From an uncultured Gammaproteobacteria bacterium (GTDB lineage Bacteria; Patescibacteriota; Patescibacteriia; Magasanikbacterales; UBA922): a stretch of DNA of 64,000 nt. The notes beneath the pieces were generated by a model. It had not been told where the DNA came from. It did not search any database and saw nothing but the letters and a program-made list of their open reading frames with translations. The DNA lies in contig CAYSXR010000001.1 of the NCBI GenBank assembly GCA_964435035.1, forward strand, positions 55,259 to 119,258. Reading direction: 5' to 3'. The position numbers were made by a program, and so were the translations under genes. Positions 9,098 to 25,810 of this stretch are shown here, in pieces; position 1 is the stretch's first letter, and each line of letters opens with the position of its first letter.

Positions 9098-9172
9098 ATA
9101 AGAACTTCTTATAGTCAACTTTGATTGACCAGACTGGTAGGGCGTAGTAGAATCCAGAGTATAATATAAGAT

Positions 9173-11038: not shown

Positions 11039-11047
11039 GTTTAAACT

Positions 11048-11587: not shown

Positions 11588-11645
11588 ATAAAGTTCAAGA
11601 AATGTAATGTAGTTTTAAGGATATTCAGTAAAATTAATAACAAAA

Positions 11646-11846
11646 CAAAAACACCCGAATTCGGGTGTTTTTAGGAGGGGATGACTAGCGGTCACCCTCC
11701 AGGGTGTGTCCAACAGTGTGCACCACCACGGTCCAGATAATTACACCTACAGTCAACCAAGGGATTTTATAGGGGTATTTTTAGGTAGTGAGGGATGCCT
11801 CTCGGTCGGGGGTCAGTTTCTATGGGAAATGAGACAAATGAGACAG
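11646..11846. repeat. Dispersed ~200-bp repeat, copy B (hairpin aaaaacacccgaattcgggtgttttt at 11646-11672; ends ...aatgagacaaatgagaca)
   Basis: Shares the hairpin, the 'gatgactagcggtcaccctccaggg-gtgtccaacagtgtgc' block, 'ctacagtcaacc', 'ctctcggtcgggggtca' and the terminal tandem 9-mer with copies A, C and D. Confidence 0.6.
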
Positions 11847-11919
11847 TTTATAAGATAGGTGAAAAAGAGCTAATTTAAGCAAATTTTGCTAGGTTGAGTC
11901 AAATTATTGCATAAATACC

Positions 11920-11948
11920 TTGACAAAATCATTAATATATGGTATACT
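11920..11948 (+). promoter_or_regulatory. Consensus promoter TTGACA-17-TATACT, followed by a 10-bp perfect inverted repeat (gtacaggcac...gtgcctgtac, 12012-12057) in the leader
   Basis: Seen directly. The downstream RBS AAGGAG is at 12101 and the ATG at 12114. Confidence 0.4.
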
Positions 11949-12113
11949 CCTTTGTTGAATATTTACTATATAGTTCTTTAATAAAATCTCAGATATTACT
12001 TTAAGGTATCGGTACAGGCACGTTCTATATCAAAAATGGTATGAAGTGTGCCTGTACTTAGGCCCATATCCTTTCACGAGGTGTCACAAAGGCACCATTC
12101 AAGGAGTGAAGTC

Positions 12114-12338
12114 ATGTCCGAGACCAAGAAGAATTTCGAGAAGCGCGTGTTCGAGGCCACTGGCGTCGAGCTGTCCCAGATCCCGGTCGGAGAACCCAAC
12201 GATGCTCTGCTGCACATCATGTGCAAGAGGGGTAACGTCTACATCGTGGCGTATGGCTATCCTGACTATCAGGATGACAACGGCAACGATGTCTGGGAGT
12301 CCCGTCCGGAGAACTTCCGGGTCGTGACGCTCTCGTAG
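12114..12338 (+). CDS. Small high-GC hypothetical protein (75 aa), compositionally foreign
   Basis: Strong RBS and about 58% GC in a roughly 35% background. The hairpin ggggaaggt...accttcccc (12396-12422) lies downstream. Confidence 0.4.
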   Translation: MSETKKNFEKRVFEATGVELSQIPVGEPNDALLHIMCKRGNVYIVAYGYPDYQDDNGNDVWESRPENFRVVTLS

Positions 12339-12558
12339 TTTCAACTCTCCTAGTCCGCTAAACCCGGACGACTAGATAGGAGATCGTACAATCATGGGGA
12401 AGGTTTTTTAGTCACCTTCCCCATTGCCTCTACCGTTGAAAACGGTACTGATGAGTCCTTAACTAGAGGACGAAAGGTAAAAAGAGCCAGTCATTCTGGT
12501 CTTTTTTGTTTTAAGTTTTTCTGTTACCATAGATTTACCTTACTTAATTAAAATAAAT

Positions 12559-13581
12559 ATGGAGAGTTTTGGTCAGTATAGACCTGAGTCAGTAACTAAA
12601 AGACCTAATGATTTTAAAGAGCAGGTAAGAGTGGTGTATGAAAAGATGTTTCCTGAGATAATTAACCAAAATTTGGAAGACAGGGAAAAAATGCAGACGG
12701 ATGTTCTTGAGAGAGAGCGTGCTTTGGAAGCTAAAGACTTTTTTGATGCACTTAAAGGGTATGGTATTGATACTTCTATTATTGAGATTACTGAGAATAA
12801 TTTATTAAAAATATCTGTAAAAAATCATTTTTCAGAAAGACGGCTACCAGAAGGGTATGCGTATAAAGGTGGCGCGGCTCGGTCATTACTTTTACGGAAT
12901 TTACGAATTGACGCAAAGAATATTCCACGAGATGTCGATGTTGTTCGAATGGTAGAAAACGAACCAAACGAGGGTGACGATAATAGAGTTTCTCAAGAAT
13001 TTATGCCTGAGGATTTTGAGACGGGATATGGGGTAGAAAAGATGTTGGATCAGGACGAGTATTTTGAATCACGGGACTTAACACTCAATGAAGTTTTAGC
13101 TACCGATGAAGAAATTATAGCAACACCTACATGTGTTTTGGATAACGTGAGACGTATTATACGGATTACAGAATATGAAAAAGATGAGAATGGGAGAGTG
13201 AATTCAAAGATGCTTGCTAAAGTGCTAAGACTATATGCAGAATCAATTCATAAATATGGTGATGCACAAATTGAGGGTGTGGATGATTGGCAATTTGAAG
13301 AAGCGTTTATCTCTCCATTTTGGTGTGCATTACAACTTGACCGAGCTTTTAATATAAATAGGCAGGTGGCGGTAGAATATATAGCACAATTAAAAGAACG
13401 TCGTCAGATTCCATTGGATATTGAAACTCCTGAACAGGCAGCTGAATATTTTCTTTCGTCAATTACAGGAAATTTTTATTATAGACATGCGGAATTAGAG
13501 AAGTTTGAATTGGAAGATAAATGGGAAGAGGAATTTGAGCGTTTACCTAAATTTGAAGGTAGTTCTCGAAGAAGTATTTAA
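12559..13581 (+). CDS. Nucleotidyltransferase of the CCA-adding/poly(A)-polymerase head-domain type (divergent)
   Basis: YKGGAARSLLLRNLRIDAKNIPRDVDVV resembles the GGaVRDxLLG...DxD head-domain signature. 340 aa, low GC. Confidence 0.35.
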   Translation: MESFGQYRPESVTKRPNDFKEQVRVVYEKMFPEIINQNLEDREKMQTDVLERERALEAKDFFDALKGYGIDTSIIEITENNLLKISVKNHFSERRLPEGYAYKGGAARSLLLRNLRIDAKNIPRDVDVVRMVENEPNEGDDNRVSQEFMPEDFETGYGVEKMLDQDEYFESRDLTLNEVLATDEEIIATPTCVLDNVRRIIRITEYEKDENGRVNSKMLAKVLRLYAESIHKYGDAQIEGVDDWQFEEAFISPFWCALQLDRAFNINRQVAVEYIAQLKERRQIPLDIETPEQAAEYFLSSITGNFYYRHAELEKFELEDKWEEEFERLPKFEGSSRRSI

Positions 13582-13601
13582 CTTATATTAAGTTAAATAT
13601 T

Positions 13602-13804
13602 AAAAAACACCCAAAAACCGGGTGTTTTTTAATGGGGGGATGACTAGCGGTCACCCTCCAGGGGGTGTGGAACAGTGTGCACACCCTCAGTCCAGAATTT
13701 TTCATCTACAGTCAACCATGGGCTTTTTCGAGGTAGTTTTGAAAGGGTAGGGGAACCCTCTCGGACGGGGGTCAATTTTTATTAAAATGAGACAAATGAG
13801 ACAC
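13602..13804. repeat. Dispersed ~200-bp repeat, copy C
   Basis: Hairpin aaaaaacacccaaaaaccgggtgtttttt, then sequence nearly identical to copy A through ...aatgagacaaatgagacac. Confidence 0.65.
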
Positions 13805-13826
13805 AGAATACTGTATTTAAATGATA

Positions 13827-13852
13827 AGCCCTCTCCTTGTTTGGAGAGGGCT
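13827..13852. terminator. Perfect 10-bp stem hairpin (agccctctcc-ttgttt-ggagagggct) at the 3' end of the minus-strand Hsp70-like gene
   Basis: Seen directly, 34 bp past the stop of the 13886-15169 (-) gene. Confidence 0.45.
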
Positions 13853-13885
13853 CTGTCTTGCCACGTGGACGCGTTTCTTGGCTTC

Positions 13886-15169
13886 TCAGCCGTTACGCGC
13901 ACCATAGGTAGCGAGACCATACGCGACTGATGCGAAGGCGTCACCTGTCACGACCTTGCCTGTTTCGGGGAACAAGTCCTTGAGCCTGCGTTGAAACGCT
14001 GGAACATGGGACGTGCCACCCGTCACGAAGACGTGGTCGATTTCGTCAGGGATGATGTCATGCTTGTCGAGGAACTTTTCCAGCTCCGAGATGATGCCAT
14101 CGATGACTTGTAAGGTATAGGCTTCGAATTCATCGCGAGTCAACGTCGTGTTGACGTCGAGGTCGTCCTCCTCGAAACGAAGCGCAGTGCTATCGGTTCC
14201 GGTGAGGTTTTTCTTTGCCTGCTCGATCTCCCTGAAGAGTTGCAGACCGTAGTTACCCTGCACGAGGGTCATGAGCCGTTTGATCGCCTTGGGATTGTCC
14301 GAATGACGTTGGATCTCGATGATCGTGTTGATCGTCTTTCGGTCCCGAAGCAGGGGGATCAGGTGCGGTCGCCGGAGTTGGTAGGTGATCGCATGCGGCA
14401 TGGGCATCACGTTGCCGAACATGCTCTTGTAGGTGCTGTTGCGCCCGAAGAGATGTGCCAACTTTTCCCACATGATGGCCGAATCGAAGTCGTCTCCTCC
14501 CAATCGAGTACCGGCTACACCGATGACGTCGATGGTTCCTGACGGCATGACTTTGGCCAGGGTGAAGTCGGATGTTCCTCCGCCGATGTCGCACACCACG
14601 ACCGTTTGAGGGTCGGTGTTGTGAAGCTTGTGGGCGTAGGCGTAGAGCGCACCGACCGGTTCTTCGCAGAGCGTAATCGGACCAAAGCCAGCTCGTGCTG
14701 CGGCTCGGGTCAAACGCTCTTTTGCGATCTGGTGCATTTCCGGATCGTTCGAGAACCTGACAGGATGTCCGAGGACCACCTCCTTAATCTCGATCCCCGT
14801 CTCATCGAGGACTCGTCGCTTCAGAAGGTTGAGGAAGGTATAGACCAAATCCTCCGCGTTCATCTGCTTGCCCTGGATGATGGTGTGGTCGAACGTTCTA
14901 CTCGACAACGTCGACTTGATCGAGCGGAGGTAGCGACCATTGTCAGGATCGTCCATGTACTCTCTGGTAGCCGCTTCTCCGATCAGGATTCGTGATGTTC
15001 CATTTTCAAAGAAAAGGACAGTTGGAGTTGAGTTTACGCGTGTATCTCCTTGAGAAAAGGTGAGGGGTACCGTAGTGGTGCCATCGCTCACGGCGACAAC
15101 AGTATTGGTGGTTCCGAAATCCAGACCGATTACCTTTTTCACTTTCTTGTTCCTTGCGTGTATGAACAA
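13886..15169 (-). CDS. Hsp70-family ATPase, nucleotide-binding domain only (YegD-like), high-GC foreign gene
   Basis: IGLDFGTTNT, VVCDIGGGTSDF, LGGDDFD and VFVTGGTSHVPAFQ match Hsp70/actin-fold NBD motifs. There is no substrate-binding domain. GC is about 57%. Confidence 0.6.
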   Translation of the reverse strand: MFIHARNKKVKKVIGLDFGTTNTVVAVSDGTTTVPLTFSQGDTRVNSTPTVLFFENGTSRILIGEAATREYMDDPDNGRYLRSIKSTLSSRTFDHTIIQGKQMNAEDLVYTFLNLLKRRVLDETGIEIKEVVLGHPVRFSNDPEMHQIAKERLTRAAARAGFGPITLCEEPVGALYAYAHKLHNTDPQTVVVCDIGGGTSDFTLAKVMPSGTIDVIGVAGTRLGGDDFDSAIMWEKLAHLFGRNSTYKSMFGNVMPMPHAITYQLRRPHLIPLLRDRKTINTIIEIQRHSDNPKAIKRLMTLVQGNYGLQLFREIEQAKKNLTGTDSTALRFEEDDLDVNTTLTRDEFEAYTLQVIDGIISELEKFLDKHDIIPDEIDHVFVTGGTSHVPAFQRRLKDLFPETGKVVTGDAFASVAYGLATYGARNG

Positions 15170-15400
15170 AAGCTACTCTAGCATAATAAGTGAAAAAATC
15201 AAGGCTAATGCTAGAATTAAGAATTTCTAGTAGATTAAGATTTTTTGGCTAGTTTATCATTGTTTTACCGATAAAAAGTTGACGAAAAGCTATGTATAAA
15301 GTATAATTTTCGTATTCTAAAGATATATGAAAAGATTGGTATTAGAAAAGTTTTTACTATGTTAACGCAATAAAACCGTCCAATTAGGCGGTTTTTCTAT

Positions 15401-17239
15401 ATGCTAAATGATAATGTTAAAAAAATAATGGTTGATACTGCTAGAAAGCATATCAAGCAAACGCAAGAAAAGATTAGCGAAGCCGTAGAAATTCAGGAGG
15501 AACGTTTGCGTACTAAAAATAAAAGAACAATTGGCTTAATGCCAAGTGATGTATTAGTTGAAGCAAAATTAACAAGTATTCTCCAAGAGCAGGTTGAACA
15601 TTTAAAGCAGCTATTTCCATCACCTTACTTTACATATTGTGAATTCGAAACAGATTCAGGAGATAACAAGAGACTGTATTTTGGAAAATTTTCATTTCGT
15701 GATCAGGATATTTATTCGTGGGTTACTCCGATTGCAACACTTCGTTTTGAACAGTTAGGTCGTGTAAGTTATAAAAGACCTGATAATGCGATTAAGCATG
15801 GAACCTTACTAAAAAGAGATCAGTATCTTATTGTTGATGGTAAATTAGTTTTTTTAGCAACTGAAGAAAAAGGAATACCAAGAGAGTTGGTATATCAAGA
15901 ACATTTTAGTCAAAAAAAAGAAGGATTCATATTGCCCGAAGTAATTGAGCAAATGGAAAAAGCCCAGGATCAGATTATCCGTGCAGGATATCGAGGCCCC
16001 TTAGTAATATCTGGCCCTGCAGGTTCTGGAAAAACAACTTTAGCTTTACATCGAGTAGCATTTTTAATGCAATCACCTGACAGTGCTGAATATTTTCCGC
16101 ATGATAAAATTTTAGTTTTTGTTCAAGATGAAAACACCAAAGATTATTTTTCACATCTCCTTCCTGAACTTGGGATTAAAGGTGTAGAGATTGTAACATT
16201 TACTGGGTGGGCATTGCAGGTATTAAGATTAAATGGTGTAGTTATCGAAAAAATAAATAATACGCAGGATACTAATCTCGAAATTTATAGGTATAATAAA
16301 TTAGAAATTCTAAAATTGGAAAAAAATATAGAGTGGAAAAAGGGAAGTCTTTTTTCTTTTTTGGATAAAGTTTACAAAAATACATTATCAGCAAAAGAGT
16401 ATAGTATTTTTGTAAAACAAAAAAAAGAAAAAAAGCTTGATCGTATTGATTTAATTTTTTTACTCACAGCAAAATATAATTCTTCAAAAGAATTTTCAGT
16501 ATTTCATGAAGTATACGAAGAATTAAAAAATGGCAGTTATCGCAAGAAGAAAATTGCACAGCCAACTCTGTATAATCTGCTCATTATTGATGAGTTTCAG
16601 AACTACCTTCCTGAAGAATTAAAAATACTGAAGTCATGTCTTAATAGTAGACTTAATTCAGTTGTCTACACGGGCGATTTCAATCAACAAGTAATTTCAG
16701 GCTCGATTAAGAATTGGAATGAAATTGATGAATTGGTGGATATTGAAAGAATGATTATTTTACAAAAAGTATATAGAAATACGAAGCAAATTTTATTATA
16801 TATTCGTTCTTTGGGATATGAAGTTAATATTCCGGAACAGTTAAAAGAGGGAGAAGAGGTTAGAGAGATTAAAACAAATAGTTGGAAAGAAGAAATTGAG
16901 TTTATCACTAGTAAAGATGAATCTCAGGATATGGTTATCGGTGTTTTAGCGTTTAATGAAAATTATCTAAAACCCTTTAAAGATTATTTTTCCAATAAAT
17001 CAAATATTCATATAATGACTATTAGTGAGTCACAGGGTGTGGAGTTTGAGTCAACATTTTTGGTAGGAATTGACGCTAGTATCTTTGATGTAAGTTTATT
17101 TCCAACACAAATGCAGGAAGAGAGAAAAAAAATGATAAAAGATTTGTTATATGTAGGCCTCACCCGTGCCATGAGTGGTATGCATGTTTGTGGTAAATAT
17201 TCTCTACGTGAACTATTTAAAGAATTTAATCCAAGTTAG
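15401..17239 (+). CDS. Superfamily-1 UvrD/Rep/HelD-like DNA helicase
   Basis: GPAGSGKTTLALHR (Walker A), LLIIDEFQNY (motif II), YVGLTRAM (motif VI), and a ~190-aa N-terminal extension as in HelD-like proteins. Confidence 0.55.
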   Translation: MLNDNVKKIMVDTARKHIKQTQEKISEAVEIQEERLRTKNKRTIGLMPSDVLVEAKLTSILQEQVEHLKQLFPSPYFTYCEFETDSGDNKRLYFGKFSFRDQDIYSWVTPIATLRFEQLGRVSYKRPDNAIKHGTLLKRDQYLIVDGKLVFLATEEKGIPRELVYQEHFSQKKEGFILPEVIEQMEKAQDQIIRAGYRGPLVISGPAGSGKTTLALHRVAFLMQSPDSAEYFPHDKILVFVQDENTKDYFSHLLPELGIKGVEIVTFTGWALQVLRLNGVVIEKINNTQDTNLEIYRYNKLEILKLEKNIEWKKGSLFSFLDKVYKNTLSAKEYSIFVKQKKEKKLDRIDLIFLLTAKYNSSKEFSVFHEVYEELKNGSYRKKKIAQPTLYNLLIIDEFQNYLPEELKILKSCLNSRLNSVVYTGDFNQQVISGSIKNWNEIDELVDIERMIILQKVYRNTKQILLYIRSLGYEVNIPEQLKEGEEVREIKTNSWKEEIEFITSKDESQDMVIGVLAFNENYLKPFKDYFSNKSNIHIMTISESQGVEFESTFLVGIDASIFDVSLFPTQMQEERKKMIKDLLYVGLTRAMSGMHVCGKYSLRELFKEFNPS

Positions 17240-17240
17240 T

Positions 17241-18320
17241 ATGAAAGAACTCACCGTCTCGCTTCCTCATGGAAAAAAACAAAAGATTTATATAGGCTCA
17301 AATTTGAGTGAGCGTCTGGTGGAAATTACGCGAAAAGAATATGACCGAGTATTTTTAGTAATTGATAAAGAGGTATATAAGAGGTATAAAGTTTTTATAC
17401 AGAATTTAATTTCAAAGATAAAACCAGTGTCAATACATGTGATAAGAGCAGGTTCAAAAGATTTATCAGAAAGTGTAAAACTTATTAATGCAATGGTGGA
17501 GGCAGAGTTGAACCGAAATAGTTGCGTGCTTGCATTTGGAGGAGGATATGTGGGTGATTTGGTAGGATTTTGCGCGTCAATTTACATGCGGGGTATTGAT
17601 ATGCTGTATTATCCGACTACGTTTATTTCCCAGGCTGATACTGTATTAGGAAAAGTTGGTGTCAATTATGATAATCATAAACATATTTTAGGAAGTTTCT
17701 TTTGTCCACGTTACACATTTTGTGATGAAGAGTTCTATCCCAAGAATGTATCAGAAAGTTTTTTATACGGACTAGTCGAAGTATGGAAGCATACACTCAT
17801 CAAAGAAGACAAGATTGTTTCGGACTACGTTGATGGTGCATTATTTCATAAAGAACTTCCTCCATTTGAAACAATCACATATCGATCAGTTGCAGCAAAG
17901 AAATTTTTTGTGCAAAATGATTTTCATGACACGAAAGGTCTGCACAAAGCTTTGAGTCTCGGACATACACTTTCAAATCACTTAGAATCTTTGGCAGAAA
18001 TACACCATGGTGTGGGAGTATTGATCGGTATTATTTTTGATACATTTTTATCAAAAGAACTAGGGCTTATTGATGATAAAAAGATGGGTTCAATATTGCG
18101 AATAGCGTCTCAGTTTAAAGAAAATTTTACAATTCCTCGGTCTATAGCGAGTATACTTAAAAGTAAGAATTTTTTAAGACGTGTTAAGTATGACAAGATC
18201 AATTCCCATAGTACCTTTACATTTGTTTTGCCCACTACCAAAGGTTATGTGATTAAAAAAGATATATCTGAGATAATGGTACAAAATGCGATTCGGTCTC
18301 TAAATAAATTTTTGCTATGA
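17241..18320 (+). CDS. Sugar-phosphate cyclase of the 3-dehydroquinate-synthase superfamily (DHQS/DOIS/EEVS-like)
   Basis: AFGGGYVGDLVGFCASIYMRGIDMLYYPTTFISQADTVLGKVGVNY closely matches the DHQS NAD/phosphate-binding core. GHTLSNHLE and HHGVGV match the metal ligands. Confidence 0.6.
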   Translation: MKELTVSLPHGKKQKIYIGSNLSERLVEITRKEYDRVFLVIDKEVYKRYKVFIQNLISKIKPVSIHVIRAGSKDLSESVKLINAMVEAELNRNSCVLAFGGGYVGDLVGFCASIYMRGIDMLYYPTTFISQADTVLGKVGVNYDNHKHILGSFFCPRYTFCDEEFYPKNVSESFLYGLVEVWKHTLIKEDKIVSDYVDGALFHKELPPFETITYRSVAAKKFFVQNDFHDTKGLHKALSLGHTLSNHLESLAEIHHGVGVLIGIIFDTFLSKELGLIDDKKMGSILRIASQFKENFTIPRSIASILKSKNFLRRVKYDKINSHSTFTFVLPTTKGYVIKKDISEIMVQNAIRSLNKFLL

Positions 18321-19435
18321 AAATACACCTAAAATCTCCAATATCTGACAGTTGGAGACAAGATGCTTTAAAAAAAATAAAAGACATTCAGGAAAAGAAT
18401 CCAGGCATTTCTATAACTAAAGAGCTACTGGGTGGAGCAACGAATACTCTTAAATATTTAGCAACATTTGATGGAGCTAAACTTTTTATTAAAATCGGAG
18501 AAAAAGTCGAACGTGAAAAAGAAGTGTATAAGCAAATAGAAGATAATGATATTTTTTTAAAAAACGTAAATCTGCAAAATGAATCCTCAGATCTTTTAGT
18601 GCTTCCTTATTATGAAGGGGTTTCTTTAGAAGAAAAAACATTACAAAATCCTTCAGAAATAGCTAAGCATACTAAATTAATTATAGAAGTTTTACAGAGA
18701 ACGTTTTCAAAGTATTGGGTGAGGAACATAAAAAAGAACGGAGGTAGTGATTTTGGAGTGAGTTTGTTGAAAAAGCGCTATCTTGAATTAAATAATCATA
18801 TTAATGCAATTTCATTCGAAAGTGGTGATGAATATAGTTTTGATGGTTTTGCTACTCGTCCAGTAGTGATACAGAAAAATAACAAAGAAATTAAGCTCCC
18901 CTCAATAAAGCAGATGACGGAGAAAATTCTCAAACTACTTGATAAACTTAAGCCTTATGATGGGTACGGGATATTAGGTGATTTTCAACCGCCAAATATT
19001 CTGATTTCAAAGGAAGGAATAAAAATAGTAGATATTTCAAATGTTGTAGATGCGGGCGACATTGCGTTCGATATTGGAAAATTTTTCAATTACTATAATA
19101 GATTTTTTTCAATTGCAGTAGTACGTGATGGTCATAAGAATAATAATTCTCATAAAATTACTATTAAAAATGGTATCATATATGTACATCAAGAAAAAGA
19201 TCATTACTCATATGCAGATAAAAAAATCATTGAAACGGTGGAAGAGGATTTTTGTGTGCATGTTGCTAAAGAATTGAATGATTACACAATTTCAGACCGA
19301 GTAAAATTGTATAAATTTGTTGTTTCTCTACTAACCATTAAAAGACATCTACAGTTCGATGGGTTAGATGAAATGCTTATTGGAAATCTTGTTGACGCAT
19401 ATTACGAGATACATAGAAAAGTTTTACATATATAA
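18317..19435 (+). CDS. APH/choline-kinase-fold small-molecule kinase
   Basis: Glycine-rich N-lobe, catalytic ILGDFQPPNILIS and DISNVVDAGD...DIG (Brenner-type motif and DFG-like). Confidence 0.45.
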   Translation: MKIHLKSPISDSWRQDALKKIKDIQEKNPGISITKELLGGATNTLKYLATFDGAKLFIKIGEKVEREKEVYKQIEDNDIFLKNVNLQNESSDLLVLPYYEGVSLEEKTLQNPSEIAKHTKLIIEVLQRTFSKYWVRNIKKNGGSDFGVSLLKKRYLELNNHINAISFESGDEYSFDGFATRPVVIQKNNKEIKLPSIKQMTEKILKLLDKLKPYDGYGILGDFQPPNILISKEGIKIVDISNVVDAGDIAFDIGKFFNYYNRFFSIAVVRDGHKNNNSHKITIKNGIIYVHQEKDHYSYADKKIIETVEEDFCVHVAKELNDYTISDRVKLYKFVVSLLTIKRHLQFDGLDEMLIGNLVDAYYEIHRKVLHI

Positions 19436-19436
19436 T

Positions 19437-20702
19437 ATGACAAGAAGAATTGAAGGATCGCTTGTTTCTCACGAGCATACAAATCCTAAACAAGAAATAA
19501 CAACACTTGAGAGATTAGAGGCAAATGCTGAAAAATGGGTGCTTTCATTTCTTGAAAATGAAGGTATAACTGGAGCATCAGTCACTGAAATTAATAAAAC
19601 AACAAAGAGCGTTTTTGGGTCAGTTGAATTTGGAGAAAAAAAACACTTCTTTAAAATTTCTGATGCAGAAAAAATTGCCTATGAGCTTGAAGGCTACAAG
19701 ATTGCGGAGGACTACAAACATGAGACGATCCACCATCATTATTTTGATGCAGAAGAAGGTTATGGACTATACATACAAGATTACTGTGATGAAGTAAGTG
19801 TTGATTCGGGTCTTGCAATACATGAGATAAATAGCGCTCTTGGCAAATCACCCGAAGAACAAAAAAAGATTGAGGATAAATTGGCAGAGGTATATCGAAA
19901 AATTCATGAAATATTTGAATCAACGCTTACTGAGGATAGATATGTTTTGTCAGGTAGGAACGATGCATTCTTCCATGAACGACTTAAAAAAGATGGACGT
20001 ATTGATAGCTATTATGGAAAAAGGAGTTTTAAATTTGAAGATTCAAAAAAAGATATCGTTGCTGAGGAGTTATTTACGTATTTAATTAGCTGCAATGGAG
20101 AAGACGGAATTGTCATACAAGATGTTATTGAAAAAGCACAACATGATCTTGATCCTGAAAAACCTCGCGTATTCGTGGTGTCCCAAGGAGACTTAACAGA
20201 GAGTAATGTTAGTGTAGAAGGAACTTTTTTTGACTTTGAAGCAGCTGGTTTAAATTCATTGATTCAGGAATTAGCTATTTATTTGGTATATACATATGTG
20301 AATGGTCACTACATCACCCCAAAGTATTCAAAGTCTACTGATCAAACATTTTCAAAGCAATTCGAACAATCAATTACAACCGAATATGTTCTTGATGAAG
20401 AAAGTAAAAAAATGGATATAGTAATGAATTATCCATTACCTGAATTAAAGCGAGCCCTCATCGAACGTTTTACAGATATTGTAATAGCTCCTATAGAAAG
20501 AAAATTAAATCCAGCTGAAAGTACTCAACTCGTTAAAGAATTACAATCTGCAATTGCATTGCGTCTGATTGCGGTTAAGAATATACTCAAATTTGAAGAA
20601 AAGGACGTATTGGTAACGCTCGGACTTTTGAGCAAATTATGTAAGGCGGGAGATGAAAAAACTTTAGAAGAATTTATAAAACAACGTTTTGTTAGTATAT
20701 AG
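19437..20702 (+). CDS. Second kinase-like protein (APH fold, more divergent)
   Basis: VFVVSQGDLTESNVSVEG...FDFEAAG resembles the hGDlhpgNvlv...iDfE catalytic loop. The ATG at 19437 is preferred. Confidence 0.3.
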   Translation: MTRRIEGSLVSHEHTNPKQEITTLERLEANAEKWVLSFLENEGITGASVTEINKTTKSVFGSVEFGEKKHFFKISDAEKIAYELEGYKIAEDYKHETIHHHYFDAEEGYGLYIQDYCDEVSVDSGLAIHEINSALGKSPEEQKKIEDKLAEVYRKIHEIFESTLTEDRYVLSGRNDAFFHERLKKDGRIDSYYGKRSFKFEDSKKDIVAEELFTYLISCNGEDGIVIQDVIEKAQHDLDPEKPRVFVVSQGDLTESNVSVEGTFFDFEAAGLNSLIQELAIYLVYTYVNGHYITPKYSKSTDQTFSKQFEQSITTEYVLDEESKKMDIVMNYPLPELKRALIERFTDIVIAPIERKLNPAESTQLVKELQSAIALRLIAVKNILKFEEKDVLVTLGLLSKLCKAGDEKTLEEFIKQRFVSI

Positions 20703-20704
20703 TT

Positions 20705-21685
20705 ATGAACATCACTTCACTTATTGATAAAAATAAAAAAACTATTTTGAGCCTTGATCTGGATAACACGATAGTAAATCGAAAGAAAGGGGATAATTAT
20801 GTACTACCTGCTCTTAAGAAAGCTCTCGAAAGGATAATGAAAAGCGAATCGATTATCCCTGTTATCAATACAGGACGCGACATTATCGGATATCGCGCAT
20901 TCCAGCGAGAAGTGTTGGATATCGGCGATGCAGTTCTTGGATCAGGAACATTGATAGTTCATGACAATACGATAGATTTAAATGAAAAAGGTTTTATTGA
21001 TGTCGTGTGTATTGAAATTCTGGAGAATGCCGTGAAAAAAGGTAAATTGCCTTTTATAGATATAACTCATGCAGAAGGTAGGATCATTGTATATAATGAA
21101 CAGGAAGTTAAAGATCTTAACGCAGAAGACCTATTTTATTCTCAGACACCAAGAACATGGTTTGAAACCAAACAACCGATAACTAAAATTAATGATTATA
21201 TACGTCCAAAACACATTTTCCGTATTGAAATCCCAGTCTTTAAAGATCATATAGAAAATCTCTATAATGAACTAGTTAATAAATCAGATGATGCATTGGT
21301 AGATTTAAATAAGTTTTTGCATTCCGAGATTGATATACGGAAGTTTGTCCTTAACAGAAAAGTATTTTTTAATGATTCATTTCAAGGAAGAGTAATTTTT
21401 GGAAGGTTCCAGAAAAGCGAATCTGAGATGAATAAAGGTTTTGGTCTCCAAAAATGGTTAGCCTCCAAAGAGTTTACACCTCTAGATTTTAATATCTTCC
21501 ATATAGGAGATAAAGATAAAGGTTTAGTGAATGACGTACTTATTAAAGATCATGTACCCAATGCCCATATTATAATGGTTAATAGTAGGACAAAAAATAA
21601 TCCGGCTGTAAGTTTGTATCTAGAAGGAGATACTGATAAAAGCATTGTAGAATTTATAACAAGTATTGTTGAAGCCTATGTTTAA
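20705..21685 (+). CDS. HAD-superfamily phosphatase-like protein
   Basis: N-terminal LSLDLDNTIV (DxDxT motif I) and a length of 326 aa. Confidence 0.35.
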   Translation: MNITSLIDKNKKTILSLDLDNTIVNRKKGDNYVLPALKKALERIMKSESIIPVINTGRDIIGYRAFQREVLDIGDAVLGSGTLIVHDNTIDLNEKGFIDVVCIEILENAVKKGKLPFIDITHAEGRIIVYNEQEVKDLNAEDLFYSQTPRTWFETKQPITKINDYIRPKHIFRIEIPVFKDHIENLYNELVNKSDDALVDLNKFLHSEIDIRKFVLNRKVFFNDSFQGRVIFGRFQKSESEMNKGFGLQKWLASKEFTPLDFNIFHIGDKDKGLVNDVLIKDHVPNAHIIMVNSRTKNNPAVSLYLEGDTDKSIVEFITSIVEAYV

Positions 21686-22247
21686 AAAAAAGATATTTTC
21701 TCAAAACGATTTACATTGGATTAATTACTTTATTATCAAAGAAGATCGTGAGAAGATGGGGGAAAAAATTAAAGGGACTCGTACAGAAAAGCTATTTGCA
21801 TTTAAGAGTGGAGACTATTCACATATACAAGAAATAGTAGGATGGGTTGCTGACATATTAGATACTGACCCTATCGTAATTGTCCCATATCCATCGACTA
21901 ATCCAAATAAAGATAAAAGTATTCAACTTCCGTATGTAGTAGCAGGGGAACTCGCAAAAATAAACAAGAATTGGATTGATGGATCAGGATATCTTAAGCG
22001 TAAATTTGAGTTACCTAAAAATACCAGAGATGTTAATTCGCAGTATGAAAGTTTGGAATTTGAATTAAACAAGGAATTTAAGAATTTTCCTATTCTACTA
22101 CTTGATGATGTGACCACCTCTGGTAGTTCACTTGAAGCAGGGCTAAAGGTAATCCGAGAGAAAAGTGAAAAGGGACAAGAAATTAGCAGTCTTGCGGTGG
22201 CAAAGAAGGTTTTCTTGAAAGAAGTTCCACCAGGAGCTTTATATTAG
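21678..22247 (+). CDS. Type I phosphoribosyltransferase-domain protein
   Basis: PILLLDDVTTSGSSLEAG matches the PRPP-binding motif. Confidence 0.4.
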   Translation: MFKKKIFSQNDLHWINYFIIKEDREKMGEKIKGTRTEKLFAFKSGDYSHIQEIVGWVADILDTDPIVIVPYPSTNPNKDKSIQLPYVVAGELAKINKNWIDGSGYLKRKFELPKNTRDVNSQYESLEFELNKEFKNFPILLLDDVTTSGSSLEAGLKVIREKSEKGQEISSLAVAKKVFLKEVPPGALY

Positions 22248-22251
22248 AATT

Positions 22252-23433
22252 ATGCTGTATTACATAAGCCATAGTGCTGTTGAAAAGGAAGAGCGTGGAA
22301 ATCAACTCCAGGTTAAGCTGTCTTTTGAATATGTATCAAAAAAGATTCCAGTAGTAGGGATATTTTTAAGTGGCAAAAAGAAGATATATACCAAGATACA
22401 GCATGCGGGCAATAAATATATAATTGACTATAACACTTGCTTTGATTGGATCGAAAAAATATTGGGTATTATTTCTTTTAAGAAAAATATTACTCCAAGT
22501 TTATTTGCCTTTAAAAGCAGTAAAATAATAAAAAAAGATACTCAAGAAAAAGACGTTTATTTGCGAATTTTTAGTCTTATTGACGGTATCTTCTTTATTA
22601 AAAGAATGAATAAATTCAAGATACGTAAGCTTGCGTGTGAGTTCCATGACATTGATTATAAGTTGCCAATGTACAAAAAGAACATAGACAGAATCTTTAG
22701 AAAATATATTTTTAAGTCTTTTATTAAACATGCGGTAAATGCCGGAGAAAAAGTAACCTTGGTAACGGTATCGCATACCTTAGCTGAACAATTTTCTAAA
22801 GAATTTAGCTATCCATATAAAATCGCTGTAATCCCTAATGGTCATAATTTTGAACATTTAGAGCCTAAAAATAAATATTCTTTTGGGAACGACCATATAA
22901 AGATTATTTATACAGGCTTGAATTTGTATAAAATGAAAGGACTCAATCATCTTATTGAAGCTTTAGATTTTCTTGACCATAGATTTTTAGTGCATATCAT
23001 TGGGGGAACCGATGCACACCGCAATGAACTTAATCAGAAATATAAAAAATTTGTAGCTCAAAAAAGGTTGATTATTGATCCACCGAAAAATCATCAGGAA
23101 ATGATAGGTTATATGCAAAAAGCTGATCTTGCGGTAATTCCACTTCCTAAGAATGATTTTTCTTTATTTACTTCGCCATTAAAATTGTTTGAGTATATGG
23201 CTGCGGGGTTACCAATTGTGGCGAGTGATGTACCGACAATCAAAGAAGTTATTAATGATAGGCAAGACGGTCTGTTGTATGAAGCTGGAGATGTGCATTC
23301 TATGGTCCAAATGATTAAAATTTTAGTTAGTCATAAAAGTTTAGCTGAAACTATAGGAAAAGGAGCGTATAGAACCTCTAAAAATTATACATATGAGAAA
23401 CGTGCAGAGAGAATATTAGAGATTTTTAATTAA
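22252..23433 (+). CDS. Glycosyltransferase family 1 (GT4-like, GT-B fold)
   Basis: C-terminal FTSPLKLFEYMAAGLPIVASDV...DGLL matches the GT1 E-x7-E region. Confidence 0.55.
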   Translation: MLYYISHSAVEKEERGNQLQVKLSFEYVSKKIPVVGIFLSGKKKIYTKIQHAGNKYIIDYNTCFDWIEKILGIISFKKNITPSLFAFKSSKIIKKDTQEKDVYLRIFSLIDGIFFIKRMNKFKIRKLACEFHDIDYKLPMYKKNIDRIFRKYIFKSFIKHAVNAGEKVTLVTVSHTLAEQFSKEFSYPYKIAVIPNGHNFEHLEPKNKYSFGNDHIKIIYTGLNLYKMKGLNHLIEALDFLDHRFLVHIIGGTDAHRNELNQKYKKFVAQKRLIIDPPKNHQEMIGYMQKADLAVIPLPKNDFSLFTSPLKLFEYMAAGLPIVASDVPTIKEVINDRQDGLLYEAGDVHSMVQMIKILVSHKSLAETIGKGAYRTSKNYTYEKRAERILEIFN

Positions 23434-23538
23434 AAAAAATTACTTTTTATTTCATTTTACTAAACAAAAAAACTGCAGAAGAAGGAGGGTACTTCAGCAG
23501 GTTATTATGCCTCATAAGGAGGTAATTATATTATAATT

Positions 23539-23997
23539 TCACTTCTTCTTAAACTTACTATCTCCCTTAATAAGGCCAACCAAATCCTCCTCCCGCTCAT
23601 ACCCTCGTAACCTCCCACTCACATATCCCATCCTATAACTCACCCCGTCACTCGTGAGTCTCCAATTCGTATCCTTCAAGGTCTTCTTAAGTATTTTCTT
23701 CAACTCATACTCACTTTCCTGTTGAGGACGATCACTCTTACTATCATAGATGCCAAACGGCACAATCACATCTTTGGTAATCTGAGGAGGAGATAACTGT
23801 AACTTAGTATATCCTTCATTCTCTAACGTAGTACTAAGCAGTTTTTCAAGATCAAGAATCGTGAGCTTCTGAATCTTTGCAACTTTCTCATACAACTCAG
23901 TATTCGCTTCTTTCTCTTTCCATTCTTTGACCATGTCCCCAATGCGCTCAATACCAGCGAATTCTATTCTCCATTTTTCTCCCTCTTCTTCTGACAA
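23539..23997 (-). CDS. hypothetical protein (152 aa; TTG start). Overlaps the upstream ORF by 34 nt, so it may be the frameshifted 3' part of one gene
   Basis: Lys/Glu-rich ORF in the same orientation as, and overlapping, 23964-24263. Confidence 0.3.
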   Translation of the reverse strand: MSEEEGEKWRIEFAGIERIGDMVKEWKEKEANTELYEKVAKIQKLTILDLEKLLSTTLENEGYTKLQLSPPQITKDVIVPFGIYDSKSDRPQQESEYELKKILKKTLKDTNWRLTSDGVSYRMGYVSGRLRGYEREEDLVGLIKGDSKFKKK

Positions 23998-24263
23998 ACA
24001 AAACCTGGCACGGTCAGCTTCAAAATGTAGATCAGGTACATCAGTCTGAACTGTTCTTTTGTATCTGAATTTACTAAGTATATAGGAGCAAAAGCAGAGC
24101 CACCCTCAAAAGTAACGGATGTTTTATTTTTGCTTAATGCAGAGGCTAAAAGTTTAAGAGCGCTTTCGCACTCTAATATATTATCCCCATGAATTCTTAA
24201 ATGCTGGATTCGTGACATTTTAGACGTTATATAATGAAAATACGATAACATTTTTTGTTCCAA
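23964..24263 (-). CDS. hypothetical protein (99 aa)
   Basis: ORF only. Confidence 0.3.
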   Translation of the reverse strand: MEQKMLSYFHYITSKMSRIQHLRIHGDNILECESALKLLASALSKNKTSVTFEGGSAFAPIYLVNSDTKEQFRLMYLIYILKLTVPGFVCQKKREKNGE

Positions 24264-24339
24264 GATACAAATTTGAGATTTATTTAAGCATTGACAAAAC
24301 CAACTTTTGATCCTACATTAGAAGAGTAAATTTTAGTTA

Positions 24340-25623
24340 TTGAAGTTTGTTAAAAAATTATTTCTTATGGAGGATCAGCCTACAGCATTAGATTATCACC
24401 TTAATAAAAAACCTCATAGAACGTATGTGAGCAAATCCTTAAAGAGAACAAATCCCGTGGACAATACCACACATTTTACGAGAATTGTTAGTAAGGTTGT
24501 CGACTGTAAGAATTTTTACGAGATGTATAAAGAAAAGAACTCAGTAGTTTTAAGGTTAAGTCCGGGAGAAAGGCAGGAAGTGATAGCGAAGGTCGATGAG
24601 GATAGTAGGGGATTTTACTTACTTATACAAAGATTTAATAAAAGATCAGGCACCCCTACTCAAGAATCTTTTTGTTTTAGGTCTGATGAATTGAAAAAGC
24701 TTTTAGACTTTATAGAATCCTTGTCAATTATTGATTTTAGTGACAAGAACAAATTTAAAATTGAGGATGCTGCATTATTAGCAGCAAAAAAATTACTCAA
24801 TGATGATCCAGATTTAGCACTAGAAATTATTCAAAATAAAATTACGAAATCTGACGTTGTTGCTCTTGCTTACCGTAAAACTCAGTTGCAGATATTTCAT
24901 AACTTGCTAAATGATGAAAGTTTTTTTGAAATGAAAAAAAACGAATGGAACAAAGCCAGAAACGAAGATGTTTGGCAGTATTTTTTTGAAGAAAATAAGT
25001 GGATTTTTGGTTATGGTCTAAACTTTGTATTTAACTCTTCTCTCGAGGGGAAAAAACTAGAGCAAGTTATTAAAGGGGCAGATTTGGAAAATGCAGGTAA
25101 ACGTGTGGACGCTCTACTCAAGACAAGAGGAATAATTAATTCCCTTTGTTTAGTTGAAATAAAAACGCATCTTACCCCGTTGTTGAAACAAGTAAAAAAT
25201 TCATATCGCTCAGCTGCATGGAGCGTCTCTGATGAATTTAATGGCGGATTGGTGCAAACACAAAAAACTTCGCAAATTGCATTGGAAAATATAAAAAACA
25301 AATTTGAAACTACAGACAATGAAGATAATCCAACTGGTGAAACGATTTATTCTTATAAACCAAAATCGTATTTGATAATAGGAAGTCACCGAGAGTTTCT
25401 GGCAGATAATGGATTCGTTAATAAAGAAAAATATTCTTCCTTTGAGTTATTTAGAAAAAATATTCTTAATCCAGAGGTAATAACTTTTGACGAATTATAT
25501 GAACGAGCTAAATTTATTGTTCATGATAATGAAAAGAGTGCAGAAAAAAAGGATGAAAGTATTGTGGAGGTAGAAGCAGAAGAGACGATAAATGAAATCA
25601 ATATAAGTGATATACCTTTTTAA
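24340..25623 (+). CDS. Protein with a C-terminal PD-(D/E)xK nuclease-like core. Possibly Shedu/DUF4263-like
   Basis: ...RVDALLKTRGIINSLCLVEIKTH...Q gives D-(x15)-E-x-K. The N-terminal 230 aa are unassigned. Adjacent to a tRNA. Confidence 0.35.
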   Translation: MKFVKKLFLMEDQPTALDYHLNKKPHRTYVSKSLKRTNPVDNTTHFTRIVSKVVDCKNFYEMYKEKNSVVLRLSPGERQEVIAKVDEDSRGFYLLIQRFNKRSGTPTQESFCFRSDELKKLLDFIESLSIIDFSDKNKFKIEDAALLAAKKLLNDDPDLALEIIQNKITKSDVVALAYRKTQLQIFHNLLNDESFFEMKKNEWNKARNEDVWQYFFEENKWIFGYGLNFVFNSSLEGKKLEQVIKGADLENAGKRVDALLKTRGIINSLCLVEIKTHLTPLLKQVKNSYRSAAWSVSDEFNGGLVQTQKTSQIALENIKNKFETTDNEDNPTGETIYSYKPKSYLIIGSHREFLADNGFVNKEKYSSFELFRKNILNPEVITFDELYERAKFIVHDNEKSAEKKDESIVEVEAEETINEINISDIPF

Positions 25624-25650
25624 AACCTATTTTAATAACTTAAATTAAAC

Positions 25651-25728
25651 AAAAACACCCAAACGGGTGTTTTAATGTGTCCTTCAGGACTATGACTAGC
25701 GGTCACCCGGGAGGGGTGTCCAACAGTG
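25651..25728. repeat. Partial copy D of the dispersed repeat (hairpin aaaaacacccaaacgggtgtttt plus the 'tgactagcggtcacccgggaggggtgtccaacagtg' block), abutting the 3' flank of tRNA-Leu
   Basis: Shares about 75 bp with copies A, B and C, then runs directly into the tRNA instead of the remainder of the repeat. Confidence 0.55.
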
Positions 25729-25810
25729 TGCTCAGGAGAGGACTCGAACCTCCAAGCCTTTCGGCGCTACCACCTCAAGGTAGTGCGTCTACCAATTTCG
25801 CCACCTGAGC
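25729..25810 (-). tRNA. tRNA-Leu (anticodon GAG), type II with long variable arm, CCA not encoded
   Basis: Reverse complement is GCTCAGGTGGCGAAATTGGTAGACGCACTACCTTGAGGTGGTAGCGCCGAAAGGCTTGGAGGTTCGAGTCCTCTCCTGAGCA. The cloverleaf folds, with anticodon loop TTGAGGT and T-loop GGTTCGAGTCC. Confidence 0.8.

What the first reader, a model, noticed from the sequence alone, without database searches (positions are those of the whole stretch)
25651..25810. Partial repeat copy D is fused to the 3' flank of tRNA-Leu(GAG)
The first ~75 bp of the repeat (hairpin plus the 'tgactagcggtcaccc...gtgtccaacagtg' block) run directly into the discriminator base of tRNA-Leu(GAG). In copies B and C the same block continues into the rest of the repeat. 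This suggests either that the repeat derives from a tRNA-flank (att-like) sequence, or that an integration or recombination event occurred exactly at the tRNA 3' end. It may also mark the right boundary of the AT-rich accessory island that begins at the truncated serine recombinase (8336).
Basis: seen in the sequence. Interest (0 to 1): 0.55.

Follow-up and report, generated by a model that had tools for sequence, protein, structure and literature searches.

The report
Mobile-element junction at tRNA-Leu 3' end
The 80 bases next to tRNA-Leu(GAG) are the right-end arm of a 17-kb stack of defence-gene elements inserted at the last bases of the tRNA gene in a Candidatus Magasanikbacteria genome: a familiar kind of genomic island with an unusual modular junction.

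Summary
Window 25651-25731 matches repeat copies B and C (about 75% identity, E 1e-9 to 1e-10). Similarity stops 3 nt inside tRNA-Leu(GAG) (25729-25810, minus strand).

Each repeat has two modules joined at a 4-bp core, GTGC. The "arm" is a bidirectional terminator, usually followed by a second hairpin. "X" is about 125 bp and ends in AAATGAGAC x2.

In eleven related Magasanikbacteria loci, every arm type occurs fused to X and also fused to the tRNA.
- One MAG (L049) is an empty site: it has the window's genes 4781-8284, then a different arm, then the tRNA.
- That defines the island as about 8285-25727. Its left edge is a deletion inside a large serine recombinase (LSR) gene.
- Identical LSR-plus-cargo-plus-arm DNA abuts the tRNA in L042 and X in L043.
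- A complete 11.3-kb element in a distant relative (L051) runs X, backbone, LSR, CBASS, arm, tRNA-Glu. Its X starts with TAG, not TGC, matching that tRNA's end.

So D is an attR-like junction, and B and C are junctions between stacked units. X is not tRNA-like and shows no RNA-structure signal. That the LSR catalyses the exchange is inferred, not shown.

The parts
25729..25810 (-). tRNA-Leu(GAG), intact. It is the anchor (the B' side of attB) of the island array.
   Evidence: ARAGORN. Rfam tRNA model, 52.2 bits. The tRNA plus the Bac_transf/EPS cluster are syntenic in L037, L042, L041, L046, L048 and L049.
25651..25727 (.). Copy D, the right-end arm (P arm) of the last unit. It contains a bidirectional terminator hairpin (25652-25673), a small GTCC/GGAC hairpin, the motif ATGACTAGCGGTCACCC, and GGGGTGTCCAACAGTG.
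   Evidence: The closest arm elsewhere is in L048, where it is also fused to tRNA-Leu.
25728..25731 (.). Core GTGC at the D junction. It covers the first trailer base, the discriminator and the last two acceptor-stem bases. It is the only sequence common to every arm-X and arm-tRNA junction.
13599..13803 (.). Copy C, an inter-unit junction: arm 13599-13676 (terminator plus hp2 hairpin), core 13677-13680, X 13681-13803.
11646..11845 (.). Copy B, an inter-unit junction: arm 11646-11717, core 11718-11721, X 11722-11845. It closes the unit that carries the recombinase remnant.
3122..3329 (.). Copy A: an 'A-type' arm 3122-3202, core 3203-3206, X 3207-3329. The arm is about 90% identical by eye to the tRNA-Leu trailer of the empty-site genome L049.
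8285..9097 (+). Remnant of a large serine recombinase gene. The catalytic Resolvase domain is missing. The reading frame is open from 8243, and homology to the intact LSR starts at about 8285.
   Evidence: Pfam domains Recombinase and Zn_ribbon_recom only. 84-86% amino-acid identity to the intact LSRs of L042, L043 and L046. Deletion joint shown.
8220..8284 (+). Truncated small ORF that follows the methyltransferase gene in L049. It is the last chromosomal sequence before the island's left deletion joint.
   Evidence: Alignment A6; L049 sequence.
8285..25727 (.). The accessory island, about 17.4 kb and mostly 29-36% GC, made of three stacked units. Unit 1: LSR remnant, OLD/GajA-like gene, ORF179, arm B. 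Unit 2: X_B, ORF340, arm C. Unit 3: X_C, Hsp70-like gene, UvrD-like gene, further genes, Shedu, arm D.
   Evidence: Composition profile. Pfam and PADLOC hits. The island is absent from L049.
24340..25623 (+). Shedu (SduA) defence gene, the last cargo gene before arm D.
   Evidence: Pfam SduA_C, E 8.6e-30. PADLOC SduA, E 6e-135.
9173..11038 (+). OLD-family / GajA-like ATPase-TOPRIM nuclease. It is cargo in the slot between the LSR gene and arm B.

Best explanation
Window 25651-25731 is an attR-type junction. It is the right-end arm of a family of integrative elements, joined to the 3' end of tRNA-Leu(GAG) through a 4-bp core, GTGC.

A unit of the family reads, left to right: X, genes, often a large serine recombinase (LSR) gene followed by 2-5 kb of anti-phage cargo, and then the arm. 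X is about 125 bp, starts with the tRNA's last three bases and ends in two 9-mers, AAATGAGAC. The arm is a bidirectional terminator, usually a second hairpin, and GTCCAAYWGTG.

Units enter by site-specific exchange within or next to GTGC. The tRNA therefore stays intact and receives a new trailer and terminator each time. Stacked units leave arm-GTGC-X junctions, which are copies B and C. Copy A is an older junction of the same kind.

Shown here: the modular junctions, an empty site, and the same-left/different-right and same-right/different-left locus pairs. Also shown: a complete element bounded by X and arm at another tRNA, and the constant position of the LSR gene upstream of the arm.

Inferred: that the LSR is the enzyme, that the crossover is a dinucleotide within GTGC (GT is the one shared by all junctions), and that units without an LSR are mobilised in trans or are decayed.
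For: (1) Empty site. L049 has homologues of window 4781-8284 (PALP/rhodanese 81% amino-acid identity), then a different arm, then tRNA-Leu and Bac_transf.

(2) Same left side, different right side. L042 and L043/L044 encode the identical LSR protein (P0121) and the same helicase/ORF296 cargo architecture, and the ~95 nt of arm DNA read on each are identical up to ACAGTGTGC. They then continue as the tRNA (L042) or as X (L043, L044).

(3) Same right side, different left side. X-aaRS is preceded by malic enzyme in L036 and by an LSR remnant plus cargo in L029. X-M23 peptidase is preceded by different DNA in L035 and L043. X-merC is preceded by different DNA in the window and L032.

(4) Five arm types each occur with both partners, and only GTGC is common to all junctions.

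(5) The LSR gene lies 2.4-5 kb upstream of an arm junction in the window, L029, L042, L043, L045, L046 and L051. The cargo in between is OLD/GajA-like, helicase, CBASS or ThsB-TIR.

(6) L051 holds a complete 11.3-kb element: terminator, GTAG, X-like sequence (nhmmer E 1.4e-8), backbone, LSR, CBASS, arm, TAG|tRNA-Glu. Here GTAG is in register with the window's GTGC, and both 9-mers have changed together to GCGAC.

(7) Arm types do not follow phylogeny. Relatives with 92-93% identical Bac_transf carry three other arm types, while the D-type arm recurs in L048, whose Bac_transf is only 73% identical.
Against: - No circular or excised form was seen. Nothing was found in viral or metagenome contig scans.
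- The window's own LSR lacks its catalytic domain, and units 2 and 3 have no recombinase.
- Stacking requires attP to react with attL or attR. This is not the canonical reaction of a large serine integrase (my own knowledge).
- L042 and L045 show no X at the expected left end of their element.
- X copies are mosaic, so homologous recombination or gene conversion also acts on them.
- X also lies next to housekeeping-looking genes (aaRS, S66 peptidase).
- The shared core is only 4 bp. In L051 the direct repeat at the two ends is therefore weak evidence on its own.
Confidence: 0.65

Rival explanations
1. The architecture is the same, but it was built by homologous recombination or gene conversion between dispersed 80-220-bp repeats (arm plus X). 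No dedicated site-specific reaction occurs at the tRNA end, and the LSR is a bystander.
For: X copies are mosaic. L035, for example, has a type-II first 45 nt and a type-I remainder. The arm terminators are similar to one another. L029 carries an illegitimate deletion joint with AAACC microhomology. No excised form was seen.
Against: X and the tRNA share no homology, so homologous recombination cannot create new arm-partner combinations. Yet five unrelated arm types each occur with both partners and share only GTGC. The first bases of X track the target tRNA, TGC versus TAG. The LSR gene position is constant.
Confidence: 0.15
2. X plus arm is a multicopy small-RNA gene on the minus strand (X body, hairpin, intrinsic terminator). 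It happens to share its 3' trailer and terminator with tRNA-Leu. D is then simply the tRNA's version of that trailer.
For: On the minus strand every copy ends in a strong terminator-like hairpin. Single-sequence folds are more stable than shuffles, z -2.9 on the minus strand and -3.8 on the plus strand.
Against: There is no Rfam hit. RNAalifold finds weak consensus structures with a positive (unfavourable) covariation term on both strands. No promoter-like site occurs within or at a fixed distance from X, and the sequence upstream of X is not conserved. This model does not explain the empty site or the locus pairs with swapped sides.
Confidence: 0.08
3. The second hairpins in the arms are small REP- or MITE-like insertions between a terminator and GTGC. 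The resemblance of D to B and C reflects independent insertions of the same mini-element, not a shared junction history.
For: Plain junctions without a hairpin exist for both partners: L036 (X) and L037 (tRNA). Hairpin types are discrete and recur.
Against: This cannot explain the near-identical LSR-cargo-arm module joined to two different partners (L042 versus L043), nor the 17-kb difference between the window and L049. The hp2 stem is not conserved as a hairpin in D or L048; only the sequence motif is.
Confidence: 0.07
4. The block is an ordinary, vertically conserved 3' trailer of tRNA-Leu, and the repeats elsewhere are unrelated to it.
For: L041 shares the terminator part of the trailer, and its alignment to the window starts at 25651.
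Against: L041, L037, L042 and L049 each carry a different trailer, although the tRNA and the downstream genes are conserved. The D-to-B and D-to-C matches have E values of 1e-9 to 1e-10.
Confidence: 0.02

Closest known systems
SCCmec-type composite islands of staphylococci (CcrAB/CcrC large serine recombinases; integration at the 3' end of rlmH/orfX). Comparison from my own knowledge, not tested here.
   Same: The recombinase is of the large-serine type. Insertion is at the extreme 3' end of a conserved gene, which stays intact. Stacks include units without a recombinase, separated by short repeated integration-site sequences. The cargo is accessory or defence genes.
   Different: The target here is a tRNA gene: Leu-GAG in this clade and Glu-UUC in L051. 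The repeated junction is a bipartite module of about 200 bp (arm plus X) with only 4 bp shared with the target. Orthology of this LSR to Ccr was not tested. The host is a CPR bacterium.
Tycheposons and PICI-like elements at tRNA genes in Prochlorococcus (bioRxiv 10.1101/2020.12.28.424599)
   Same: These are cargo-carrying elements that integrate at specific tRNA genes. Newcomers push older units further into the island, and degraded integrases and cargo-only remnants are found. Some carry terS-like genes. The backbone here also carries a ParB-N6 methyltransferase gene and a weak terS-like gene.
   Different: 474 of 501 tycheposons use tyrosine recombinases and are flanked by partial tRNA copies. 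Here the recombinase is a large serine type, and the distal repeat X contains only 3 nt of the tRNA and is not tRNA-like.
Classical tRNA-targeting genomic islands and prophages with tyrosine integrases (P4-like and similar). Comparison from my own knowledge.
   Same: The island lies on the 3' side of a tRNA gene, differs in GC content, carries a degraded recombinase, and leaves the tRNA intact.
   Different: Those elements duplicate 15-50 nt or more of the tRNA 3' half as the att core. Here the crossover lies at the discriminator with a core of at most 4 bp, and each arm supplies a new trailer and bidirectional terminator.
Integron cassette arrays
   Same: The array consists of same-orientation units separated by a recurring structured recombination site. 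Some units hold a single gene: X_B-ORF340-arm in the window and partial X-ORF128-arm in L035.
   Different: There is no IntI tyrosine recombinase and no attI/attC with R and L boxes. The units carry their own promoters (for example 11920-11948) and may hold many genes on either strand.

Membership tests
Integrative element / genomic island at a tRNA gene | An occupied site and an empty site in related genomes, with the breakpoint at the tRNA 3' end | tested here: met
   L049 (empty) versus the window (17.4 kb inserted). The switch is at GTGC.
Integrative element / genomic island at a tRNA gene | The target tRNA remains intact after insertion | tested here: met
   The tRNA-Leu(GAG) genes of four loci align as a nearly identical 82-nt block (two variable columns); intact tRNA-Leu(GAG) genes are also detected in L046-L049 and score as full tRNAs in the window.
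Integrative element / genomic island at a tRNA gene | A site-specific recombinase gene inside the element | tested here: met
   The window holds only a remnant at 8285-9097 without the catalytic domain. Intact LSR genes of 431-457 aa occupy the same position in L042, L043, L045, L046 and L051.
Integrative element / genomic island at a tRNA gene | A direct repeat of a partial tRNA (the att core) at the distal end | tested here: not met
   X shares only TGC with the tRNA. Its alignment score is no better than shuffled sequence, and there is no tRNA model hit. The window's distal end is in any case deleted.
Integrative element / genomic island at a tRNA gene | An excised circular form, or experimental excision | not testable with these tools
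   No reads were available. Pattern scans of the viral and metagenome collections gave only chance hits or none.
Large serine recombinase (integrase) system | Resolvase, Recombinase and Zn_ribbon_recom domains all present | tested here: not met
   The window copy lacks the Resolvase domain. The feature is met in the relatives' copies, which carry PF00239, PF07508 and PF13408.
Large serine recombinase (integrase) system | Short att sites that share only a central crossover dinucleotide | tested here: inconclusive
   The exchange point is confined to GTGC or less, and G|T is common to the Leu, Glu and X junctions. The half-sites show no clear dyad symmetry.
Large serine recombinase (integrase) system | This recombinase catalyses this exchange | not testable with these tools
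   The only evidence is positional linkage in seven loci.
Tycheposon | A tRNA-specific tyrosine (rarely serine) recombinase with flanking partial tRNA copies | tested here: not met
   The recombinase is a large serine type and there is no partial tRNA repeat.
Integron | An IntI tyrosine recombinase with attI, and attC sites with R''/L''/L'/R' boxes | tested here: not met
   Pfam scans of the ORFs of 120 aa or more in window 1-25.6 kb that I submitted (not every ORF was scanned) found no tyrosine recombinase. Inspection found no GTTRRRY boxes at the junctions.
Known structured RNA families (Rfam 15) | A covariance-model match at or near the gathering score | tested here: not met
   No hit to X or the arms at gathering threshold. 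At E<=10 only chance-level hits to the terminator appear.
tRNA-derived repeat (degenerate tRNA half) | Sequence or structural similarity of X to a tRNA | tested here: not met

The most novel reading that the evidence does not exclude
Magasanikbacteria, and perhaps other CPR bacteria, may carry a cassette-capture platform driven by a large serine recombinase and anchored at a tRNA 3' end. In this reading the bipartite site arm-GTGC-X works like an attC/attP hybrid. Recombinase-less defence or metabolic cassettes (X, genes, arm) could then be inserted, stacked and shuffled in trans. The first bases of X would co-evolve with the target tRNA, and the tandem 9-mers would co-evolve with an accessory DNA-binding protein. 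Each arm would re-supply the tRNA with a terminator.
Probability: 0.3. Interest if true: 0.7.

Novelty: new variant of a known kind. Interest (0 to 1): 0.45.

Why it matters
- CPR/Patescibacteria genomes are tiny and uncultured, and little is known about how they gain and exchange anti-phage genes.
- These data define a concrete, sequence-recognisable junction: arm, then GTGC, then either X or a tRNA end.
- The junction delimits defence cargo slots (Shedu, OLD/Gabija-like, CBASS, Thoeris-TIR) across several Magasanikbacteria MAGs.
- It also links those slots to one recombinase family.
- That gives a handle for finding island boundaries and new defence genes in CPR metagenomes.
- If the serine recombinase really acts at a 4-bp core on the tRNA discriminator, it also gives a compact candidate att-site and integrase pair.

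Tried and rejected
- **Rfam.** The whole window at gathering score, and 11600-13900 at E<=10, gave nothing for X or the arms.
- **RNA structure of X.** RNAalifold on seven copies gave weak consensus structures on both strands, with no supporting covariation.
- **Promoter scan.** There are no promoter-like sites in or beside X.
- **X as a degenerate tRNA half.** Rejected.
- **Coding potential of X.** The short ORFs are not conserved between copies. This is from inspecting the alignments.
- **Viral-contig scans.** Two X motifs gave only seed-length chance matches.
- **Metagenome scans.** Two patterns gave 0 hits. That collection evidently lacks the JGI samples that the look-up of encoding contigs later returned.
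- **Exact-protein look-up.** The window's Bac_transf returned only a 1.7-kb contig.
- **Circular permutation.** I considered that L029's junction (window 24005 joined to 8324) showed a circular form. I rejected this in favour of a deletion joint, because both genes are truncated there and the two sides share AAACC microhomology.
- **Similarity of arm hairpins to internal X motifs** (CCCTCTCGG; CTAGCGGTCACC versus CTACAGTCAACC). This is suggestive only: nhmmer E 0.98.
- **ORF340 homologues.** I searched for them to test cassette mobility. They are only about 50% identical and spread across CPR, so I did not pursue them.

Full report
**1. The observation**

tRNA-Leu(GAG) lies on the minus strand at 25729-25810 (ARAGORN; Rfam tRNA model 52.2 bits). 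Its 3' end therefore faces lower coordinates.

The 81 nt at 25651-25731 match three other places in the window:
- copy B, 11647-11721: 76% over 84 nt, E 9e-11;
- copy C, 13603-13680: 75% over 87 nt, E 4e-9;
- copy A, 3123-3195: 73% over 73 nt, E 8e-5.

The alignment of all four copies (A1) shows where the similarity ends. D shares with B and C a terminator hairpin (AAAACACCC..GGGTGTTTT), the motif ATGACTAGCGGTCACCC, and GGTGTCCAACAGTGTGC. After GTGC (25728-25731), D continues as the tRNA. A, B and C continue instead as a conserved module of about 125 bp, which I call X. X contains CTACAGTCAACCA and CTCTCGGNCGGGGGTC, and ends in AAATGAGACAAATGAGACA.

The one correction is that the shared sequence extends 3 nt into the tRNA, covering the discriminator and the last two acceptor-stem bases.

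**2. Context in the window**

The neighbouring proteins identify the organism as a Candidatus Magasanikbacteria (CPR) bacterium.

The region from about 8.3 to 25.7 kb is mostly 29-36% GC, against about 40% outside it. One gene inside it is 55% GC. The region holds:
- a serine-recombinase remnant with Recombinase and Zn-ribbon domains only;
- an OLD/GajA-like nuclease;
- an Hsp70-like gene;
- a UvrD-like helicase;
- a Shedu SduA gene (PADLOC E 6e-135) that ends just before D.

**3. The repeat in other genomes**

A pattern scan of one genome per species found true homologues only in Magasanikbacteria MAGs: L029, L035, L036 and L032. An nhmmer profile of X then found more copies in loci fetched through protein neighbours: L043, L044, L045, L046, L047 and, more distantly, L051.

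Every copy has the same layout, an arm, then (G)TGC, then X. The arms fall into discrete, unrelated types:
- **hp2:** GATGACTAGCGGTCACC
- **A-type:** GGGATATCCCTCTCGGATACCCAGCAGGCATGTCTATTTTG
- **hp1b:** ...CCCTCTCGGTC...GTTCTACAG
- **hp3:** CTAGAG...CTCTAGRACACTTAGAAACGGTGT
- **plain:** a terminator with no second hairpin

**4. The tRNA-Leu locus in relatives**

The tRNA and the downstream polysaccharide gene cluster are syntenic in L037, L041, L042, L046, L048 and L049. To the left of the tRNA, every genome is different.

The tRNA's 3' flank is one of the same arm types in each case:

| Locus | Arm type next to the tRNA |
|---|---|
| Window (D), L048 | hp2' |
| L042 | hp2 |
| L041 | hp1b |
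| L046, L047 | hp3 |
| L049 | A-type |
| L037 | plain terminator |

Each of the five arm types therefore occurs joined to X in one locus and to the tRNA in another. The only sequence common to all junctions is GTGC.

Arm type does not follow phylogeny. The three closest relatives, whose Bac_transf is 92-93% identical to the window's, carry three different arm types. The D-type arm recurs in L048, whose Bac_transf is only 73% identical.

**5. Empty site and island boundaries**

L049 comes from the same MAG as L032. It carries homologues of the window's decarboxylase, PALP/rhodanese (81% amino-acid identity) and methyltransferase genes. These are followed by a small ORF, an A-type arm, tRNA-Leu and Bac_transf.

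The window follows L049 up to about 8284, inside that small ORF. It then switches to codon ~165 of the serine recombinase gene (alignment A6). The island is therefore about 8285-25727. Its right edge is the GTGC core. Its left edge is a deletion joint that removed the recombinase's catalytic domain and whatever lay to its left.

**6. Exchange happens at the junction**

L042 and L043/L044 encode the identical LSR protein (P0121), followed by the same helicase and ORF296 cargo. The arm sequences shown for each locus are identical up to ACAGTGTGC. L042 then continues as the tRNA, and L043 and L044 continue as X.

The converse pairs also exist, with the same right side and different left sides:
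- X-aaRS (97% amino-acid identity) is preceded by malic enzyme and a plain terminator in L036, and by an LSR remnant, cargo and an arm in L029.
- X-M23 peptidase is preceded by different DNA in L035 and in L043.
- X-merC is preceded by different DNA in the window (copy A) and in L032.

X and the tRNA share no homology. Homologous recombination therefore cannot create new arm-partner combinations, which points to a site-specific reaction at or within GTGC.

**7. What the units look like**

In seven loci an LSR gene lies 2.4-5 kb to the left of an arm junction, with defence cargo in between:

| Locus | Cargo between the LSR gene and the arm |
|---|---|
| Window | OLD/GajA-like nuclease, ORF179 |
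| L029 | two unknown ORFs |
| L042, L043 | SF1 helicase, transglutaminase-like ORF296 |
| L045 | CBASS with Cap2, JAB and SAVED |
| L046 | ThsB-TIR |
| L051 | CD-NTase and Cap15 |

L051 decides the orientation of the model. It comes from a more distant Magasanikbacteria lineage, whose LSR is 63% identical. It contains one complete 11.3-kb element, in this order:
- a plain terminator;
- GTAG;
- an X-like sequence (nhmmer E 1.4e-8);
- minus-strand small ORFs;
- a ParB/N6-methyltransferase gene;
- the LSR gene;
- CBASS cargo;
- an arm, made of a terminator, a hairpin carrying CCCTCTCGGTC, and GTCCAATTGTG;
- TAG|tRNA-Glu(UUC).

In the alignment, GTAG sits exactly where the window copies have GTGC. 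Both terminal 9-mers have changed together, to AAATGCGAC and AAACGCGAC (A7).

X is therefore the left end of a unit and the arm is its right end. X begins with the last three bases of whichever tRNA the lineage uses.

On this reading the window holds three stacked units: LSR remnant to arm B, X_B to arm C, and X_C to arm D. D is the attR-like junction with the tRNA, and B and C are inter-unit junctions.

Copy A (A-type arm, GTGC, X, then merC to the methyltransferase gene) is an older junction of the same kind. Its arm is about 90% identical (by eye) to the trailer that flanks the tRNA in L049. I cannot fully explain that. It would fit if the A-type arm were the native trailer: it alone encodes CCA after the discriminator (GCA-CCA-AAA).

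**8. Mechanism**

The family resemblance is to integrative elements that stack at the 3' end of a conserved gene.

The constant linkage to the LSR, the 4-bp limit on the exchange point, and the G|T shared by all junctions make an LSR-catalysed crossover the most likely mechanism. This is inferred, not shown.

Stacking would need reactions other than the canonical attP x attB. Such reactions are known to me for staphylococcal Ccr recombinases, but they were not tested here.

The mosaic X copies and the illegitimate deletion joints show that homologous and illegitimate recombination also reshape the array.

Every arm carries a symmetric A-run/hairpin/T-run terminator. This terminates both the cargo transcript and the tRNA transcript. 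Each insertion therefore re-equips the tRNA with a trailer.

**9. What X is not**

- X has no Rfam match.
- It has no consensus structure supported by covariation on either strand.
- It has no promoter-like site.
- Its short ORFs are not conserved between copies.
- It has no similarity to a tRNA.

The conserved 125 bp go well beyond what a serine-integrase half-site needs. The co-varying 9-mer pair suggests an accessory protein-binding site, but its role is unknown.

**10. Verdict**

In kind, this is a tRNA-anchored stack of integrative defence elements, which is well known. The particulars appear undescribed in the two literature searches I ran:
- the link to a serine recombinase;
- the crossover at the discriminator, with at most 4 bp of shared core;
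- interchangeable terminator arms;
- the X module;
- the CPR host.

I rate it a new variant of a known kind, with moderate interest.

Noticed in passing
window 12423-12481 (+): A candidate type III hammerhead ribozyme lies in the long leader between the strong promoter (11920-11948) and ORF340 (12559). It has CUGAUGA, GAAA, a 7-bp helix I (UACCGUU/AACGGUA), a 4-bp helix II (GUCC/GGAC) and a weak helix III. Rfam score 35.9 bits against a gathering score of 48.5; E 1e-6 in a 141-nt search and 0.0025 in a 2.3-kb search.
   Followed up: partly
window 13886-15169 (-): An Hsp70/actin-fold gene with 55% GC sits inside an island of 29-36% GC. It appears to be a separate, recent import from a GC-richer donor. 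It has no PADLOC match.
   Followed up: partly
L037 9640-9760: An 18-20-bp direct duplication of the 5' end of tRNA-Leu (CAATTTCGCCACCTGAGCAT) flanks an insert of about 95 bp just upstream of the tRNA. The 5' side of this tRNA has therefore also been hit by an insertion event.
   Followed up: no
L029 2500-2560; window 8318-8329 and 23996-24010: L029 joins the homologue of window 23529-24005 directly to the homologue of window 8324-9039. Both genes are truncated there, and AAACC is shared at the joint. I read this as an illegitimate deletion, not as a circular junction.
   Followed up: partly
window 23539-24263 (-): Two overlapping ORFs (99 and 152 aa) look like one frameshifted gene. It has no Pfam match. 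Its homologue lies next to the recombinase remnant in L029.
   Followed up: partly
window 35779-35810 / 37313-37344: Inverted repeats of 32 nt, 94% complementary and 1.5 kb apart, bracket tRNA-Arg(TCG) and tRNA-Lys(CTT). A further 26-nt hairpin (36255-36326) lies between the two tRNAs.
   Followed up: no
window 3196-3209; L049 3340-3352: A-type arms place CCA directly after the discriminator (GCA-CCA-AAA). All other arm types give GCA-CAC or GCA-CAA. Whether the tRNA's CCA is genome-encoded therefore depends on which arm sits next to it.
   Followed up: partly
L051 3215-3234 versus window 13785-13803: The two terminal 9-mers of X changed together, from AAATGAGAC x2 to AAATGCGAC/AAACGCGAC. This is what I would expect of a paired protein-binding site. 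L032 has three copies and L046 has one.
   Followed up: partly
window 8497-8524: A terminator-like hairpin (CAAAAACACCTTTTACTATGGTGTTTTT) lies inside the recombinase reading frame. It has the same ACACC/GGTGT design as the arm terminators and the one at 49702-49729.
   Followed up: no
L042 14223-15113; L046 3848-4738; L048 6855-7745: A 296-aa protein with a weak transglutaminase-core match recurs immediately upstream of the arm in several loci. It may belong to the element backbone rather than the cargo.
   Followed up: partly
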